From Anaerolineae bacterium (GTDB lineage Bacteria; Chloroflexota; Anaerolineae; J102): 64,000 bases of DNA. Shown piece by piece: positions 49,549 through 57,174 of the stretch. Each line of letters opens with the position of its first letter. Positions within the stretch are counted from its first letter, which is position 1. Position numbers and translations under genes: made by a program. The notes under the pieces were generated by a model. It ran no database searches. It saw only the letters and a list, made by a program, of their open reading frames with translations, and was not told the DNA's origin. The stretch covers positions 4,624-68,623 of the forward strand of contig JALWZT010000109.1 in the NCBI GenBank assembly GCA_027002405.1, in the 5' to 3' direction.

Positions 49549-50043
49549 CTATTCATATTCCATCTTGCCCAAAACAATCATACTCTCGATATCTTCCAAG
49601 GCATCGGGCATATAAACAGCCACGGCCTGACGTACCTGCTGAAGCTGTCCCTCATCGGCCGCGCCCAACATGCGCGTGATATCGGCAATATCCTGCACCC
49701 GGCCCGAATAGAGCTTCATCACCACGAGATAAGGAAGTGCAATCGTGGGGATGCCATGCTCATCCACAACAGGATGAGCCAGCGCCTCTTGGGCCCAGGG
49801 TTCGTCTGAGAAGATGACATCCAGTTCAGTCCCATCAGGTAGCGCCCAGGTGGCGCCTCCAATCGATAATTCCCCCAACTTTTTGCAACCCGCCTCCAAT
49901 AACTCCTCTTCGCACCCTTGACGGTCTGCTGCCAATACCAAAATATCGATATCCAGCGTCATCCGTTCCGGCATATAGAGACGCGTGGCAAGGCCACCGA
50001 CGACAACGAACGGTGTTTTTTTAAGAATATCGAGTAACGACAT
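49549..50043 (-). CDS. hypothetical protein with minimal nucleotidyltransferase-fold features (AbiEii/MNT-like GG...R.T.DIDILV)
   Basis: FVVVGGLATRLYMPERMTLDIDILV; start moved to MSLLDILKK; weak assignment. Confidence 0.35.
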   Translation of the reverse strand: MSLLDILKKTPFVVVGGLATRLYMPERMTLDIDILVLAADRQGCEEELLEAGCKKLGELSIGGATWALPDGTELDVIFSDEPWAQEALAHPVVDEHGIPTIALPYLVVMKLYSGRVQDIADITRMLGAADEGQLQQVRQAVAVYMPDALEDIESMIVLGKMEYE

Positions 50044-50086
50044 CGGGCTTCTTCCCAGCGAAGTGCGTCGTGAAAGAAACGATCTA

Positions 50087-50612
50087 TCACTGCCGGCGCC
50101 AGGGCGCACGCGTCGTTTCGCCAAATCGATGTAGGCTTTGCGTCGAATTCCTAACTTGGTTAGATGGGGCATGAGTTCTGTAGGGTTCCTCATTATCGAT
50201 GATCTCATAATGAGCATGTTCCAACGCTTTATCAAGATATTCGGTCAATATCATCTGCTTTCTGACGATTATTATGGGTGAATGCAAACAAAATATCCAA
50301 TGATTTCCGATATCTGTCAACGTCTCGATAGCCAATTGGTAAAAAGCGTTCGGCGCTGCCATAGCGTTCTGGACTGGCAAGAAACTCATCCCGGGAATAA
50401 TGTTGTAATTGTCGCAGAATCTGAAGATATTCGTCCAGCTTTTGCAACCGACGCAACAACACTTCACGCCTGACCATGAAGCGTCCTCCGCTTGTAAGCC
50501 CGCCGTTGTGTGGTCAGATAGGGGAGGAAATCGAAATAGGCGGCAAAAACGCGGGCCAGTGTTTCCTGTGCGGTGATATCGAATGGGAGAGAATGAGATA
50601 CTGCTCGGGTAA
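50087..50612 (-). pseudogene. decayed TA copy: mntA with ~300-bp internal deletion (50476-50612), hepT 5' half with frameshift (50290-50477) fused to hicB upstream region and first ~27 codons (50161-50280)
   Basis: DNA near-identical to 53860-54458 (hepT-mntA) and 56955-57045 (hicB 5' end); junctions visible. Confidence 0.6.
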
Positions 50613-50751
50613 TCATAATTTCATTTCACTGAAAACCATTCATCTCGCGACCGCTCGACGCGTGCAATTCGTGTCATTTGTGAAAATTCGTAGTTGTGAA
50701 ATTCGTGGTTGCATCATTTGTGGCGTAAAGCCAACAACTCCAGCAAACGAC

Positions 50752-51159
50752 TCACCGTGATCGGTTCAATACCATACTCGGCCAACCGCTGCGCCAATTC
50801 CAAATCCCGAGTGATATCCTCATCGCGGCTAACAACGTATTGAGCCCCTCCGATAACAGCGGTTTCCAACACTCGTCATCAGGATCACGACACAAACGCA
50901 GGTCGCCCGAGACTGGGACCAATCGGGCAACTTCGGCAACGTTTCGTACAAAGGCCTCGGCATCCGCTGGGGTCGTACGCCGAATTTTCATGATGCGAGG
51001 CCGACACAGCACCTCCAACAGCTCTTCGAGCATAGGAGGAGACATCACAACAGTCAATTGGCCTGCTTTCCCTGCTTCTACGAGACGATCCGGGAAGCCC
51101 CGAGGATTCAAAAATGCTGACACCCAAATATTCGTATCAACCACTGCGACGACGGCCAC
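50752..51159 (-). CDS. PIN-domain toxin (TIGR00305-like), copy A, apparent -1 frameshift after ~codon 96; authentic C-terminus AVIGGAQYVVSRDEDITRDLELAQRLAEYGIEPITVSRLLELLALRHK is in another frame
   Basis: VVDTNIWVSA...LCRDPDDE then frame change; identical to copy B. Confidence 0.65.
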   Translation of the reverse strand: MAVVAVVDTNIWVSAFLNPRGFPDRLVEAGKAGQLTVVMSPPMLEELLEVLCRPRIMKIRRTTPADAEAFVRNVAEVARLVPVSGDLRLCRDPDDECWKPLLSEGLNTLLAAMRISLGIWNWRSGWPSMVLNRSR

Positions 51160-51454
51160 GACGCTGCTCTCTTACTTCCTCACGGGCCATGGTGATTTCG
51201 GACTCGATTTGGGCAGGGGTGTAAGAAGTTGGACGCTCGTGAATTTTGCTCAAGAGTTCATCGAGCTGGCGCCATGCCATCTGCTGACGTTCCTTTTCAA
51301 GGGTTGCCAGAGACTGTAGCCGGCGATATTCCTCGATAGAAATCAATACAGCCAGAGGCTCGCCGTCACGTTCTACCACGAGAGGCGTTTGCAAGTCTGT
51401 CTTGGCTACGTCATAATCAGCGGCAGTTTTTGGAATTGTCTTGGATTTGGTCAT
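51137..51454 (-). CDS. Phd/YefM-like antitoxin partner of PIN toxin, copy A
   Basis: TPLVVERDGEPLAVLISIEEYRRLQ; 23-bp overlap with toxin gene. Confidence 0.7.
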   Translation of the reverse strand: MTKSKTIPKTAADYDVAKTDLQTPLVVERDGEPLAVLISIEEYRRLQSLATLEKERQQMAWRQLDELLSKIHERPTSYTPAQIESEITMAREEVREQRRGRRRSG

Positions 51455-51529
51455 CGTACAACCTCCTGGCTTTCAGTGTACCAAGTTCGCCCGTTCTTGT
51501 CATCTCTGGGAGCCACGAATCTCGCGACC

Positions 51530-51800
51530 ACGAATCTTGGACCAGCCAACCTGCTTCTCCTTGCAAAAAACCGGGAAAGGAGACAAGGTGAGGGGGCGAT
51601 AAGGTGACAAGGAGACAAGGTGAGGGGGTGAGGGGGTGACTTCTCCTCATGACCATCTCACAAAATTCGCATGGCGGCCTCAAACGCCATCTGATACACA
51701 TCCAAATCACGATGCGTCTTGATCGCCCGGCTCACACTCCTTGTCTCCTTGTCTGCTTGTCTCCTTGTCTCAGAATCGCCTTGATTGGACGTCATGTGAA
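51530..51800. repeat. ~260-bp palindromic element (ACCAGCCAACCTGCTTCTCCTTGCAAAAAACCGGGAAAGG...GGTGACAAGGAGACAAGGTGAGGGGGTGAGGGGG ... CTCACACTCCTTGTCTCCTTGTCTGCTTGTCTCCTTGTCTC), copy 1
   Basis: copies at 52690-52950 and partial 55380-55520; ORF-track peptides MIWMCIRWRLRPPCEFC... are translations of this element. Confidence 0.7.
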
Positions 51801-51901
51801 AGTGGCCGCTGAGTTGGTGATGGGCCGCTGATGGACGCTGATTGTTTATCTATGTCCAATTCACGGTGCAAAACTTCACTCATTACCTGGCCCCTCTTGT
51901 C

Positions 51902-55520: not shown

Positions 55521-55662
55521 TCCACTGTTCAGGGTGCATAATCATGTTCACTAATTTCCCCAGGATGTTGTCGTAGATGGTGTACAGTTGATGAGAGCGG
55601 TTGCAGGTTACACGTTGGGTTGTTCGTTGATCAAAATGGCGGCCTCTGCGTTCCATTCGTAG

Positions 55663-56157
55663 TTACAACTCTCCACTCTGTTGCAGCGCAAAACGCTTCA
55701 CCTTCTCACTCAACCAAATACCTTGGCGCTCCATACGCTCGATCACATCCCCTATCGAACGCAGGCGCCCCTCGCGTTTGGCACGAAGCAAAATACCGAT
55801 AGAGCCAGTAACCGAAAGCCCATGTAGTCTGGCAACACGCCTTCCGGACACCTCGTCAATACAAACCGTGCTAATGCCTTCATTGAGCGCCAATTGAATA
55901 ACCGCAGCCTCACCCCTATCCAGGGAGTTGAGCAGGTATAGCGAGATATTCAATGCCTCCTGGCGTTTCTCCAACCAGTCTGCCTCGGCAAACTCCTTTG
56001 CTGCGAAACGCGTCCCGCTACCCACCAACAGTTCCTGAGAAACCTCAAGCGGCACACAAACACGGCGATACATCTGGAGAATGCTCAAGTCACCCAACCC
56101 TGCCACGAGGGCAATAAGAGGCCCCGTATTGATGACAATCTCCTGCGTTTCAGGCAT
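55663..56157 (-). CDS. DUF3368-domain protein (PIN-like putative toxin)
   Basis: INTGPLIALVAGLGDLSILQMYRRVCVP...GEAAVIQLALNEGISTVCIDEVSGRRVA. Confidence 0.75.
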   Translation of the reverse strand: MPETQEIVINTGPLIALVAGLGDLSILQMYRRVCVPLEVSQELLVGSGTRFAAKEFAEADWLEKRQEALNISLYLLNSLDRGEAAVIQLALNEGISTVCIDEVSGRRVARLHGLSVTGSIGILLRAKREGRLRSIGDVIERMERQGIWLSEKVKRFALQQSGEL

Positions 56158-56398
56158 TGCGCAGATCGGCCTCTAGCTCGTCGTTATCCAGATCGATCAC
56201 GGCCACGCCATAACGATGCAATTCCAGAAGAAAAGACACCCGGTCCATACCTACCAACTGTGCCGCCAGCCCCGAAGACAATCGTTTCATCTCGAATAAC
56301 TTGACCGCCATCGCCATCTTCGCTTCCCGTTCGAATTGGGCTGGCGTCTGTTGCAGTGCATCAGGTAAAGATTTCGGGTACTCTATCACAACTGGCAT
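56150..56398 (-). CDS. UPF0175 family protein
   Basis: AMAVKLFEMKRLSSGLAAQLVGMDRVSFLLELHRYGV. Confidence 0.75.
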   Translation of the reverse strand: MPVVIEYPKSLPDALQQTPAQFEREAKMAMAVKLFEMKRLSSGLAAQLVGMDRVSFLLELHRYGVAVIDLDNDELEADLRNA

Positions 56399-56489
56399 AT
56401 CATCCTCCAGTGAATGTTGGAATCATGATATTCATTCTATCATATCTTGCGACGAGAAGGTAGTCCCGATGACGCCCCTCAAACAAAGC

Positions 56490-56612
56490 CCACTGGCCCG
56501 GCGAATGACGCCGTGCACCTCGTAGCCTTTGGCCAGCAGAAACTCGGCCAGATAGGGGCCGTCTTGGCCGGTAATGCCGGTGATGAGAGCTACAGGTTGA
56601 GTGGATGTCATG
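56490..56612 (-). pseudogene. gmd: GDP-mannose 4,6-dehydratase N-terminal remnant (41 codons), truncated
   Basis: [41 protein letters not shown] ~85% identical to E. coli Gmd N-terminus, then nonsense and stop. Confidence 0.7.
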
Positions 56613-56624
56613 TGAAATAAGCCG

Positions 56625-56768
56625 CTGATGAGGATTTGGCAAAATCAGACGACGATTGCCTTTCATCATAGACTCATGATTACCACCAGCGTATGGCCCA
56701 TCAAATCCTAACGCTCGCAGGCGTTTTATAAAATCTCGTCGAGAGACAGGGGTCAGGCGCTTCGTCAT
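56625..56768 (-). CDS. hicA: HicA-family toxin, first ~48 aa recognisable, C-terminus replaced by read-through into gmd remnant
   Basis: [48 protein letters not shown]. Confidence 0.55.
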
Positions 56769-57019
56769 CAGGCGGCAAGCAATTCTGGAGGACGGATTTC
56801 GAGACCATTCAGAGGAGGAATTGGCAGCCCTTTTGCCAGACTAAATAGAAGCCAATCCTCTAGCGCACTGGCCAGATTGCGGCGGCAGGCCTCAAGCGAC
56901 TTTCCCGTCGCCCACACACCGGGGAGCTCGGGAATCTCGCCATAATAAGGTTCCTCATCATCGATGATTTCGTAATGAGCATGTTCCAACGCTTTATCAA
57001 GATATTCGGTCAACATCAT
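56768..57019 (-). CDS. hicB: HicB-like antitoxin (UPF0150/HicB_lk)
   Basis: MMLTEYLDKALEHAHYEIIDDEEPYYGEIPELPGVWATGKSLEACRRNLASALEDWLLF. Confidence 0.7.
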   Translation of the reverse strand: MMLTEYLDKALEHAHYEIIDDEEPYYGEIPELPGVWATGKSLEACRRNLASALEDWLLFSLAKGLPIPPLNGLEIRPPELLAA

Positions 57020-57174
57020 CTGCCTCCTAACGATTATGGGCGGATACAAACATTATACCACAGGCTTTACAGCCATCAGCGCCTCCACCATGGCCAGACC
57101 ATTGCTTTCGCTACAATTGTTCAGGTCATAAAATGGAGAATTGAATAATCGGCCCAAAGCGGTCGCCTCGCCCA

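What the first reader, a model, noticed from the sequence alone, without database searches (positions are those of the whole stretch)
49549..57060. 7.5-kb TA/defence island of at least eight type II/VII modules embedded in a polysaccharide-biosynthesis operon
Between a GT4 gene (ends 49458) and a sugar epimerase gene (57175-58218), both on the minus strand, lies an island of eight minus-strand TA modules: hicB-hicA, UPF0175-DUF3368 (intact at 55663-56398), Phd-PIN copy B, mntA-hepT, an orphan UPF0175 with a truncated DUF3368, UPF0175-DUF3368 (52380/51902), Phd-PIN copy A, and a decayed mntA-hepT'-hicB' chimera followed by a nucleotidyltransferase-like gene. This module density, the internal segmental duplication, the repeat-element insertions and the gmd remnant at its edge all suggest a recombination hot spot. 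It reads as a defence-island graveyard that landed inside, and partly destroyed, a glycan cluster. The unassigned genes inside it (the 49549-50043 NTase-like protein, the DUF3368/UPF0175 pairs) are the most likely place for an undescribed defence function.
Basis: partly seen in the sequence, partly recalled or inferred. Interest (0 to 1): 0.7.

Follow-up and report, generated by a model that had tools for sequence, protein, structure and literature searches.

The report
Decaying toxin-antitoxin cluster inside glycan operon
A 7-kb stretch inside a surface-sugar gene cluster of an uncultured Chloroflexota bacterium is packed with eight small toxin-antitoxin cassettes of well-known families, most of them already broken, so it is a real but ordinary piece of selfish-gene debris rather than a new defence system.

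Summary
Between the GT4 gene (ends 49458) and the epimerase gene (57175-58218) lie eight co-oriented toxin-antitoxin (TA) cassettes of four known families: HicAB, Phd/PIN_3, UPF0175/DUF3368-PIN and MntA/HepT. A 1.4-kb segmental duplication, repeat-element remnants and relics of a GDP-mannose dehydratase gene (gmd) are also there. Independent contigs from several samples support the architecture.

- Only three cassettes have both ORFs intact.
- Both PIN copies share a frameshift, hicA is truncated, and one DUF3368 is truncated.
- There are two gmd stubs from different alleles, both internal to the island.
- The "NTase-like" gene is really 207 aa (49549-50172). It is a partnerless MenT1/AbiEii-type nucleotidyltransferase. 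Sister species carry it inside glycan loci that have no TA genes, so it is not part of the mosaic.

The "unassigned" DUF3368/UPF0175 pair was predicted as a PIN TA system in 2009 and 2017. It is also an untested PADLOC candidate, PDC-S70. No validated defence system is present.

Best reading: a TA accretion-and-decay zone at a recombination-prone junction of a polysaccharide locus in a TA-rich Caldilineales genome. It is a new instance of known kinds, of low interest.

The parts
56768..57049 (-). hicB antitoxin, intact (93 aa)
   Evidence: Pfam UPF0150-like 1.3e-31, full profile length.
56625..56768 (-). hicA' toxin remnant. It has the first 48 codons only; the ORF then runs on, out of frame, across the gmd stub to 56400.
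   Evidence: HicA_toxin 2.7e-4, profile positions 2-39 of 58. Junction sequence.
56489..56611 (-). gmd stub 1: start codon plus 41 codons of a GDP-mannose 4,6-dehydratase gene
   Evidence: GDP_Man_Dehyd 3.8e-12, profile positions 1-33. 72-82% identical to the N-termini of full-length gmd in other loci.
56150..56398 (-). UPF0175 antitoxin, copy 3 (82 aa)
   Evidence: PF03683 2.6e-27. PADLOC PDC-S70 partner model 2e-8.
55663..56157 (-). DUF3368/COG2405 PIN-like toxin, copy 3 (164 aa). The ORF is intact, but Asn replaces the first catalytic Asp.
   Evidence: PF11848 6e-13. PDC-S70 1.3e-45. N10 aligns with D7 of copy 1.
55377..55656 (-). Remnant of a four-helix-bundle (23S rRNA IVS protein) element: C-terminal ORF piece plus the 3' flank repeat
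   Evidence: LYTIYDNILGKLVNMIMHPEQWTI matches the C-terminus of the L015 130-aa protein, which is PF05635 at 2.3e-28. The repeat 55377-55489 matches element E.
54979..55296 (-). Phd/YefM-type antitoxin, copy B (105 aa)
   Evidence: PhdYeFM_antitox 5.5e-7 (identical protein). TIGR01552 at 23.3 bits against a cut-off of 20.8.
54556..55001 (-). PIN_3 toxin copy B, a pseudogene with a frameshift near 54712
   Evidence: PIN_3 covers only profile positions 2-95 of 115 in the ORF. The C-terminus sits in a second ORF, 54556-54714. The homologue in L093 reads through this point in one frame.
54021..54458 (-). mntA antitoxin (type VII), intact (145 aa)
   Evidence: NF047752 at 77.5 bits against a cut-off of 60. 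Polbeta 1.3e-18. The GS...DxD motif (GSMASGRSHGESDLDL) is visible in the sequence.
53621..54034 (-). hepT toxin (HEPN RNase), intact (137 aa); overlaps mntA by 14 nt
   Evidence: NF047751 at 130.6 bits against a cut-off of 60. HepT-like 2.4e-33. The Rx4HxY motif (RNILVHDY) is visible in the sequence.
53395..53466 (-). gmd stub 2, about 24 codons ([22 protein letters not shown]), from a different gmd allele than stub 1
   Evidence: GDP_Man_Dehyd 2e-4, profile positions 16-38. The 47-nt overlap with stub 1 is 81% identical, with mostly third-position differences.
53052..53327 (-). UPF0175 antitoxin, copy 2 (91 aa)
   Evidence: PF03683 2.1e-23.
52941..53059 (-). DUF3368' toxin remnant: about 40 N-terminal codons, cut off by element E
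   Evidence: Aligns with the N-termini of the intact copies. Residues 41-55 of its ORF are element-E sequence.
52695..52940 (-). Element E, copy 2: an internally deleted IVS-type four-helix-bundle element
   Evidence: 96% identical to 51535-51780. Carries IKTHRDLDVYQMAFEAAMRI, which matches the N-terminus of the L015 PF05635 protein.
52380..52640 (-). UPF0175 antitoxin, copy 1 (86 aa)
   Evidence: PF03683 6.4e-25.
51902..52399 (-). DUF3368/COG2405 PIN-like toxin, copy 1 (165 aa), intact with acidic residues D7, E39 and D102
   Evidence: PF11848 6.5e-11. PDC-S70 2.9e-49. AF2 model pLDDT 94.9. Best PDB matches are Nob1 and VapC4 PIN domains, TM 0.5-0.7. E39 and D102 are invariant in 36 homologues.
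51535..51780 (-). Element E, copy 1, with terminal inverted repeats that form a long hairpin
   Evidence: Repeats. RNA fold -91.8 kcal/mol, z = -2.6.
51137..51454 (-). Phd/YefM-type antitoxin, copy A; protein identical to copy B
50714..51159 (-). PIN_3 toxin copy A, with the same frameshift as copy B (near 50870)
   Evidence: There is 1 substitution in the 958 bp of the PIN-Phd core between the copies.
50464..50616 (-). mntA' remnant: a 285-bp in-frame internal deletion leaves a 50-codon ORF
   Evidence: Alignment of copy A with copy B. The junction shows short imperfect repeats.
50300..50477 (-). hepT' remnant: first 59 codons, with a 1-nt indel
50181..50302 (-). hicB' fragment: upstream region plus the first 35 codons of a hicB copy
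   Evidence: 87-91% identical to 56946-57052. Junction sequences.
49549..50172 (-). MenT1/AbiEii-type nucleotidyltransferase (207 aa) with a conserved N-terminal helix and no partner gene. It probably pre-dates the mosaic.
   Evidence: Pfam AbiEii at 22.8 bits against a cut-off of 22.5. Profile against the PDB: MenT1 8an4, 2.4e-4. AF2 pLDDT 88; best folds are MenT1 8an5 and 8an4, E 4e-8. Equivalents of MenT1 T39, D41, K137 and D152 are conserved. The homology block with sister loci is exactly 49543-50172.

Best explanation
What it is. The interval 50181-57052 is a mosaic of eight co-oriented toxin-antitoxin cassettes from four long-known families: HicAB, Phd/YefM-PIN_3, UPF0175-COG2405/DUF3368 PIN, and type VII MntA-HepT. 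It accreted, and has largely decayed, at a recombination-prone junction of a surface-polysaccharide operon in an uncultured Caldilineales (Chloroflexota) bacterium. That junction once held a GDP-mannose dehydratase gene.

Shown:
- The family assignments.
- Only three cassettes keep both ORFs: mntA-hepT, and two UPF0175-DUF3368 pairs. One of those pairs has Asn at the first catalytic Asp.
- In three independent cases the toxin is broken while the antitoxin ORF is whole: hicA truncated, PIN frameshifted before the duplication, DUF3368 cut by a repeat element.
- The architecture was built by a 1.4-kb segmental duplication, a microhomology deletion, illegitimate joins and IVS-type element remnants.
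- Two gmd 5' stubs from different alleles each sit just upstream of a different UPF0175-DUF3368 pair.

Inferred mechanism. The intact modules work as ordinary TA pairs.
- HepT is a HEPN RNase kept inactive by MntA-catalysed AMPylation.
- The DUF3368 protein is a VapC-like Mg-dependent PIN RNase, bound and transcriptionally autoregulated by its HTH antitoxin UPF0175.
- Each module appears to bring its own promoter.
- Toxin-first decay is what selection allows, because losing the antitoxin first would be lethal.

The gene at the 3' end (49549-50172) is not part of the mosaic. It is a complete MenT1/AbiEii-type nucleotidyltransferase with all four catalytic or regulatory residues. It has no partner gene, and sister species carry it inside TA-free glycan loci.
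For: - Family assignments.
- PIN frameshift.
- hicA truncation. DUF3368 truncation by element E.
- Duplication and its internal differences.
- Junction sequences and the microhomology deletion.
- Two gmd stubs, 81% identical over 47 nt with synonymous differences.
- A full gmd directly adjacent to epimerase homologues in L086 and L078, and within 5 kb in four more of 80 loci.
- Independent contigs covering all unique junctions.
- PIN fold of DUF3368.
- NTase fold and residues.
- NTase in sister glycan loci without TA genes, with homology confined to the ORF.
- TA-rich background (HigBA elsewhere in the window).
- Related Chloroflexota loci L093 and L094 also mix TA genes with broken glycan genes.
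- Promoter-like hexamers upstream of both Phd copies and of UPF0175 copy 2.
- Taxon.
- Literature on UPF0175-COG2405.
Against: - There are no expression, toxicity or neutralisation data for any gene here.
- No close relative with an island-free locus and an intact gmd was found. The genome scan found nothing close, and the sister loci are not collinear. The direction of events (insertion into a once-intact operon) is therefore inferred from relics only.
- The Phd-PIN core is 99.9% identical between copies, while the adjacent remnants differ by 2-3%. This could mean gene conversion, or selection on a still-useful unit rather than plain decay.
- Toxin-first decay in 3 of 3 cases is not statistically significant.
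- The core of copy A (50677-51504) lacks independent unique coverage.
Confidence: 0.8

Rival explanations
1. The island is a working multi-system anti-phage defence island. The intact cassettes (PDC-S70-type PIN pairs, MntA-HepT, the AbiEii-like NTase) act as abortive-infection modules. The location in a glycan (phage-receptor) locus reflects joint selection by phages.
For: - PADLOC candidate models hit strongly: PDC-S70 at 3e-49 and 1e-45, PDC-S09 at 7e-8.
- The NTase belongs to the AbiEii/MenT fold.
- TA systems of these kinds have been linked to defence in other organisms (established knowledge).
- Glycan loci are phage-selected.
Against: - No validated defence system was found.
- PDC-S70 and PDC-S09 are explicitly untested candidates.
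- Five of the eight cassettes are broken.
- One intact PIN lacks its first catalytic Asp.
- The NTase has no antitoxin or sensor partner in any of about 10 contexts.
Confidence: 0.12
2. The locus is a glycan-cassette exchange hot spot. TA cassettes are not random debris: they hitch-hike with, or stabilise, exchanged glycan cassettes. The gmd 5' stubs served as homology arms, and the conserved NTase gene marks the junction.
For: - Two gmd stubs from different alleles each lie immediately upstream of a different UPF0175-DUF3368 pair.
- The NTase is 82-88% identical between sister loci, whereas neighbouring glycan genes are only 35-57% identical. DNA homology stops exactly at the ORF ends.
- Downstream cassettes differ between L101 and L104.
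- L104 carries a second NTase 5' fragment.
- L093 and L094 show the same mix of TA genes, NTase and broken gmd or epimerase genes.
Against: - Three of the ten NTase contexts are not glycan loci.
- 80 glycan loci from other lineages contain no homologues of these TA genes.
- Only a handful of contexts were sampled, and several come from the same few metagenomes.
- There is no evidence that TA genes move together with glycan genes.
Confidence: 0.2
3. The NTase-like protein is a glycan-pathway enzyme or regulator, for example one that nucleotidylylates a sugar hydroxyl as ANT(2'') and Lnu enzymes do. On this reading it is not a toxin.
For: - It sits inside otherwise intact glycan operons, between a GFO/IDH/MocA oxidoreductase and a DegT aminotransferase, in L090-92 and L101-103.
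- It has no antitoxin partner.
- The second-best structural matches are ANT(2'')-Ia and LnuA, which adenylylate sugar hydroxyls.
Against: - The best sequence and fold match is the tRNA-modifying toxin MenT1.
- The MenT1 residues T39, D41, K137 and D152 are all conserved.
- It occurs next to an osmoprotectant transporter, an SLH glycosidase and Sua5 in other genomes.
Confidence: 0.12
4. The duplication and the chimeras are assembly artefacts, caused by strain mixtures being merged into one contig.
For: Short-read contigs all break at the repeat. The source is a metagenome-assembled contig.
Against: Four distinct junction types are each seen in independent contigs from different samples:
- full E element to Phd: L106;
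- DUF3368 to partial E to Phd: L002, L003;
- PIN to deleted mntA': L088, L099;
- PIN to intact mntA: L002, L105, L106.
In addition, the copies differ by indels and substitutions.
Confidence: 0.03

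Closest known systems
UPF0175 (COG2886) - COG2405/DUF3368 PIN predicted type II TA system; PADLOC candidate PDC-S70
   Same: - A small HTH-like UPF0175 gene overlaps a downstream gene of about 165 aa, three times here.
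- Strong hits to all PDC-S70 models.
- The DUF3368 protein models as a VapC-like PIN domain.
- The pairing matches the exclusive UPF0175-COG2405 association described in PMC5499597 and PMC2701414.
   Different: One copy has Asn at the first catalytic Asp, and one copy is truncated. Nothing here adds to what is known. Neither toxicity nor defence has been shown experimentally for this family, here or in the cited papers.
MntA-HepT (HEPN/MNT) type VII toxin-antitoxin system
   Same: Both NCBIfam equivalog models are passed. The genes overlap, the Rx4HxY and GS...DxD motifs are present, and the antitoxin gene comes first.
   Different: The second copy is reduced to a 50-codon mntA' and a 59-codon hepT'. 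A sister strain has a 6-bp tandem duplication right after the Rx4HxY motif.
MenT1 (Rv0078A) / AbiEii DUF1814-superfamily nucleotidyltransferase toxins
   Same: MenT1 is the best sequence-profile match and the best fold match. Equivalents of T39 (the autophosphorylation site), D41, K137 and D152 are conserved.
   Different: - There is no MenA- or AbiEi-type antitoxin gene next to it in any context examined.
- It has an extra conserved N-terminal helix (RRKxYxxLAxRRVRPGSGS) that MenT1 lacks.
- It only grazes the Pfam AbiEii and DUF6036 thresholds.
- In this lineage it is often embedded in glycan operons.
VapBC-like Phd/YefM-PIN_3 and HicAB type II modules
   Same: Domain content, overlapping gene pairs, antitoxin gene first.
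   Different: Both toxins are inactivated: PIN_3 by a frameshift shared by both copies, HicA by loss of its last third. What remains are orphan antitoxins.
Chromosomal TA clusters, TA cassettes in variable regions, and defence islands (general phenomenon)
   Same: Dense co-oriented small two-gene cassettes, mosaic junctions, pseudogenes, and a location in a variable locus.
   Different: The cluster sits inside a polysaccharide operon rather than next to mobile-element or validated defence genes. No integrase, integron attC site or transposase was seen within the island.

Membership tests
MntA-HepT type VII TA | HepT: HEPN RNase with an Rx4HxY motif that passes the family model | tested here: met
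   NF047751 at 130.6 bits against a cut-off of 60. RNILVHDY is in the sequence.
MntA-HepT type VII TA | MntA: minimal nucleotidyltransferase (GS...DxD) encoded immediately upstream of, and overlapping, hepT | tested here: met
   NF047752 at 77.5 bits against a cut-off of 60. 14-nt overlap.
MntA-HepT type VII TA | The antitoxin neutralises the toxin by AMPylation | not testable with these tools
   Needs biochemistry.
UPF0175-COG2405 (DUF3368) PIN TA / PDC-S70 | A UPF0175 gene directly upstream of a COG2405/DUF3368 gene on the same strand | tested here: met
   Three pairs, overlapping by 8-20 nt.
UPF0175-COG2405 (DUF3368) PIN TA / PDC-S70 | PIN fold with the acidic active-site residues | tested here: met
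   Copy 1: the model matches VapC and Nob1 PIN domains, and D7, E39 and D102 are present. Copy 3 has N10 in place of the first Asp, so the feature is only partly met for that copy.
UPF0175-COG2405 (DUF3368) PIN TA / PDC-S70 | Demonstrated toxicity and neutralisation, or anti-phage activity | not testable with these tools
   The literature itself calls PDC-S70 unvalidated.
Phd/YefM-PIN (VapBC-like) type II TA | Phd/YefM antitoxin domain | tested here: met
   TIGR01552 at 23.3 bits against a cut-off of 20.8. Pfam gives 29.7 bits against a cut-off of 29.8, which is borderline.
Phd/YefM-PIN (VapBC-like) type II TA | Complete PIN toxin ORF | tested here: not met
   The same frameshift occurs in both copies. 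The full profile is recovered only after repair. There is no slippery heptamer at the site (sequence).
HicAB type II TA | HicB antitoxin domain | tested here: met
   UPF0150-like 1.3e-31.
HicAB type II TA | Complete HicA toxin | tested here: not met
   Only profile positions 2-39 of 58. The ORF runs into the gmd stub.
MenT/AbiEii (DUF1814-superfamily) NTase toxin-antitoxin | NTase fold and the four conserved residues (MenT1 T39, D41, K137, D152) | tested here: met
   Fold E 4e-8 to 8an5 and 8an4. Profile E 2.4e-4. The aligned T, D, K and D are invariant or nearly invariant in 40 homologues.
MenT/AbiEii (DUF1814-superfamily) NTase toxin-antitoxin | An adjacent cognate antitoxin gene (AbiEi/COG5340 or MenA) | tested here: not met
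   No conserved neighbour in the window or in L090-L098 and L101-L104.
MenT/AbiEii (DUF1814-superfamily) NTase toxin-antitoxin | Passes the Pfam AbiEii model | tested here: inconclusive
   22.8 bits against a cut-off of 22.5. DUF6036 gives 22.8 bits against a cut-off of 23.6.
Defence island | A cluster containing experimentally validated defence systems | tested here: not met
   PADLOC hits only PDC candidates, plus a non-significant AbiEii match.

The most novel reading that the evidence does not exclude
The partnerless MenT1-like nucleotidyltransferase has a conserved N-terminal helix. Its family has about 150 clusters at E<=1e-30 and about 1,200 at E<=1e-3. On the most novel reading, it is a fixed resident at the cassette-exchange junction of polysaccharide loci in Caldilineales. 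The adjacent TA graveyard, with its two gmd homology stubs, would then record repeated glycan-cassette swapping in which TA pairs ride along or stabilise the incoming cassette. The NTase itself could be a self-regulated toxin (the N-terminal helix acting in cis like MenA1) or a glycan-linked enzyme.
Probability: 0.15. Interest if true: 0.45.

Novelty: new member of a known kind. Interest (0 to 1): 0.2.

Why it matters
The value is mainly for annotation. The locus shows how TA cassettes pile up and decay toxin-first inside a variable surface-glycan locus, destroying biosynthetic genes such as gmd along the way. It also shows that DUF3368/UPF0175 and the small NTase should be annotated as a PIN-type TA pair (PDC-S70 candidate) and as a MenT1/AbiEii-like NTase, not as unknowns. 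The only thread with some wider interest is the partnerless MenT1-like NTase that recurs inside glycan operons of this lineage. If it proved to be a self-contained toxin or a glycan-linked enzyme, that would extend the MenT/AbiEii family.

Tried and rejected
1. Looking for an island-free syntenic locus.
- The genome-contig scan with GT4 returned only an unrelated archaeal hit.
- The metagenome scan with the epimerase returned 80 loci at 76% identity or less, too distant for synteny. They did show gmd next to the epimerase in a few loci, and none of them carries these TA genes.
- Exact-protein look-ups found only the same species.

2. Programmed frameshift in PIN. Rejected: there is no slippery heptamer at the site, and the L093 homologue reads through this point in a single frame.

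3. A conserved partner for the NTase. Rejected after inspecting 10 contexts.

4. NTase strictly glycan-linked. Rejected: three contexts are not glycan loci.

5. Possible glycosyltransferase relic at 57053-57112 (SESNGLAMVEALMAVKPVV). No Pfam or tblastn support, so it is left unverified.

6. Sequence search of DUF3368 and UPF0175 against the PDB. This gave only spurious repeat-protein hits, or none. The fold search was used instead.

7. Rfam scan of 47000-59500. Nothing credible.

8. Terminator scan. Not above shuffled expectation.

9. My chimeric four-helix-bundle query (protein 2) was mostly L015 sequence, so it is not evidence for the window.

Full report
**Observation**

Profile searches assign them as follows.
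- hicB: UPF0150-like, 1.3e-31.
- hicA: HicA_toxin, but only profile positions 2-39 of 58.
- Three UPF0175 genes: 1e-23 to 1e-27.
- Two full DUF3368 genes.
- Two identical Phd/YefM genes and two identical PIN_3 genes.
- One mntA-hepT pair that passes the NCBIfam type VII equivalog models (77.5 and 130.6 bits, cut-off 60).

The flanks belong to a long operon of glycosyltransferases, flippase, methyltransferases, aminotransferase, epimerases and a sugar-phosphate transferase. GuaA in the same window is 80-85% identical to proteins labelled Chloroflexi, Caldilineae or Caldilineales. The host is therefore an uncultured Caldilineales-like Chloroflexota bacterium.

**Is the architecture real?**

Self-comparison gives three repeat relations:
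- 50300-51661 matches 53858-55489 at 96-97%.
- A 246-nt element, 51535-51780, matches 52695-52940, with a partial third copy at 55377-55489.
- 50181-50290 matches 56946-57052 at 87%.

Independent short-read contigs from several samples and two MAGs tile the region at 99.4-100% identity:
- 38306-50677: L099, L088.
- 51504-54883: L106, L105.
- 53614-64000: L002, L003, L004.

They stop only inside the near-identical Phd-PIN repeat, as expected for a true repeat. All four junction types that distinguish copy A from copy B are seen independently. An assembly artefact is therefore unlikely. Only 50677-51504 lacks unique independent cover.

**State of the cassettes**

Only three cassettes have both ORFs intact:
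- mntA-hepT (53621-54458), with the GS...DxD and Rx4HxY motifs.
- UPF0175-DUF3368 at 51902-52640.
- UPF0175-DUF3368 at 55663-56398.

The three UPF0175-DUF3368 modules share only 33-44% protein identity and no DNA similarity. They are separate acquisitions or old paralogues. Copy 3 has Asn where copy 1 and the truncated copy have the first PIN Asp.

The other cassettes are damaged.
- Both PIN_3 copies carry the same frameshift after DPDDE, and the C-terminal 50 residues lie in another frame. A 64-67% identical homologue in locus L093 reads through this point in one frame. No slippery heptamer is present, so this is a pseudogene that pre-dates the duplication.
- hicA stops being HicA after codon 48 and runs into a gmd stub.
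- The middle DUF3368 keeps about 40 codons and is then replaced by repeat-element sequence.
- Copy A of mntA has a 285-bp in-frame deletion between short imperfect repeats.
- hepT' keeps 59 codons with a 1-nt indel, and is joined to a diverged copy of the hicB promoter region plus its first 35 codons.

So in three independent events the toxin was lost while the antitoxin ORF stayed whole, and there is no case of the reverse. That is the expected direction of decay, though three cases prove nothing statistically.

**Relics of the glycan operon**

The stub at 56489-56611 is the start codon plus 41 codons of a GDP-mannose 4,6-dehydratase gene (3.8e-12). It lies between hicA' and UPF0175 copy 3, not at the island edge.

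A second stub at about 53395-53466 ([22 protein letters not shown]; GDP_Man_Dehyd 2e-4) lies just upstream of UPF0175 copy 2. The two stubs overlap by 47 nt and are 81% identical there, with differences mostly at third codon positions. They cannot be two halves of one gene; they come from two gmd alleles.

Full-length gmd genes lie directly next to epimerase homologues in L086 and L078, and within 5 kb in four more of the 80 metagenomic loci. This is consistent with a former epimerase-gmd arrangement.

No close relative lacking the island was found. Two strains of the same species share both island ends. 'Insertion into a once-intact operon' is therefore inferred from relics, not observed.

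**The repeat elements**

Element E carries IKTHRDLDVYQMAFEAAMRI, and the spacer at 55486-55656 carries LYTIYDNILGKLVNMIMHPEQWTI. These match the N- and C-termini of a 130-aa protein in L015, which is a 23S rRNA intervening-sequence (four-helix-bundle) protein (PF05635, 2.3e-28). E has terminal inverted GGAGACAAG-type repeats and folds into a long hairpin (-91.8 kcal/mol, z = -2.6). The 'repeat-element insertions' are therefore internally deleted IVS-type elements. Within this window they occur only inside the island.

A separate short repeat (core GCGCAGATGCTTCGCAGCGC) occurs at 48114, 53520 and 58303.

**The 'NTase-like' gene**

DNA homology with sister loci begins exactly at the ATG at 50172 and ends 6 nt beyond the end of the ORF. 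The gene is therefore 49549-50172 (207 aa), and the hicB' fragment abuts it 9 nt upstream.

Evidence for what it is:
- It only grazes the Pfam AbiEii and DUF6036 thresholds.
- A 40-sequence profile finds M. tuberculosis MenT1 in the PDB at 2.4e-4.
- The AlphaFold model (pLDDT 88) matches MenT1 best (E 4e-8, TM 0.55-0.65), followed by ANT(2'')-Ia.
- The residues aligned with MenT1 T39, D41, K137 and D152, which are the catalytic and autophosphorylation residues in PMC11375011, are invariant or nearly so.
- The family has 153 clusters at 50% identity with E<=1e-30, and 1,241 with E<=1e-3.

No conserved partner gene exists in the roughly ten contexts examined.
- In sister taxa the protein is 82-88% identical and sits inside intact glycan operons without any TA gene (L090-92, L101-104). 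Neighbouring glycan genes there are only 35-57% identical.
- In L093 and L094 it sits among TA genes and broken glycan genes.
- In L095, L096 and L098 it is in unrelated contexts.

I conclude that it is an older resident of the locus, not part of the TA mosaic. It most likely works like MenT1, by nucleotide addition to tRNA 3' ends. However, it fails the two-gene criterion for membership of the MenAT/AbiE systems.

**Known or new?**

UPF0175 (COG2886) with a COG2405/DUF3368 PIN protein was predicted as a TA pair by Makarova et al. 2009 and by Matelska et al. 2017. It is in PADLOC as the untested candidate PDC-S70. The DUF3368 copy 1 model (pLDDT 94.9) is a VapC/Nob1-like PIN domain.

PADLOC reports no validated defence system in the interval. 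TA genes also occur elsewhere in the window: HigB (6e-34) with a HigA-like HTH partner at 6834-7509. By contrast, 722 kb of glycan loci from other lineages hold no homologues of the island's TA proteins. The island is thus a local roughly 30-fold concentration of TA cassettes in a TA-rich genome. It is not a general property of glycan loci.

**Verdict**

The TA and graveyard reading is supported. The 'defence island with undescribed functions' reading is not.

The best explanation is accretion and toxin-first decay of ordinary TA cassettes at a recombination-prone junction of a variable polysaccharide locus (confidence about 0.8).

The most novel reading still open is that the junction is a glycan-cassette exchange site marked by a partnerless MenT1-like NTase, with TA pairs hitch-hiking on exchanged cassettes (probability about 0.15).

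Overall this is a new instance of known kinds, and its interest is low.

Noticed in passing
window 6546-7509: There is another TA module outside the island: HigB toxin at 7216-7509(-) (PF09907, 6e-34) with a HigA-like HTH protein just downstream (inside ORF 6834-7370). A short Phd/YefM-like ORF at 6546-6740(+) is below the Pfam cut-off and has no recognisable toxin.
   Followed up: partly
window 51535-51780, 52695-52940, 55377-55656: The island's repeat element is an internally deleted copy of a 23S rRNA intervening-sequence-type four-helix-bundle protein gene. It has GGAGACAAG-type terminal inverted repeats that fold into a long hairpin. A full-length relative (130 aa, PF05635) lies in the unrelated glycan locus L015 at 15365-15757, with similar flanking repeats.
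   Followed up: partly
window 48114-48133, 53520-53539, 58303-58322: A short MITE-like repeat (core GCGCAGATGCTTCGCAGCGC) occurs three times in intergenic spacers of the operon; none is expected by chance. In the sister-strain contig L002 a different small repeat occupies the site downstream of hepT.
   Followed up: partly
window 50601-51558 vs 54443-55400: The PIN-Phd core of the duplication differs by 1 substitution in 958 bp. The adjacent hepT' remnant has 4 substitutions and an indel in 178 bp, and the element-E flank is also diverged. This suggests gene conversion or a composite history.
   Followed up: no
L002 14030-14449 vs window 53621-54034: A second strain (MAG GCA_027013725.1) has a 6-bp tandem duplication (GACTAT) in hepT immediately after the Rx4HxY motif, giving 139 aa instead of 137 aa.
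   Followed up: no
L093 1374-9982 and L094 1-10615: Other Chloroflexota glycan loci carrying the NTase homologue also mix TA genes (PIN_3, HicB/HicA, an MNT-like NTase) with broken glycan genes. The broken genes include a gmd with an internal deletion, split NTP_transferase genes and a split epimerase. L093 also has an rve/AAA_22 transposon next door.
   Followed up: partly
L104 7629-7739: A second, partial copy of the NTase 5' end (aa 6-42, 62% identity) lies about 130 bp downstream of the full NTase gene. This hints at a past tandem duplication or recombination at this gene.
   Followed up: no
window 57053-57112: A short ORF between the epimerase stop and hicB reads SESNGLAMVEALMAVKPVV. It resembles the conserved C-terminal motif of GT4 glycosyltransferases, but no profile or BLAST search supported it.
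   Followed up: partly
window 47133-48059 (+): This 308-aa ORF is the only plus-strand ORF of at least 150 aa in the glycan operon that does not overlap a longer minus-strand ORF, and it has no Pfam match at E<=1e-5.
   Followed up: no
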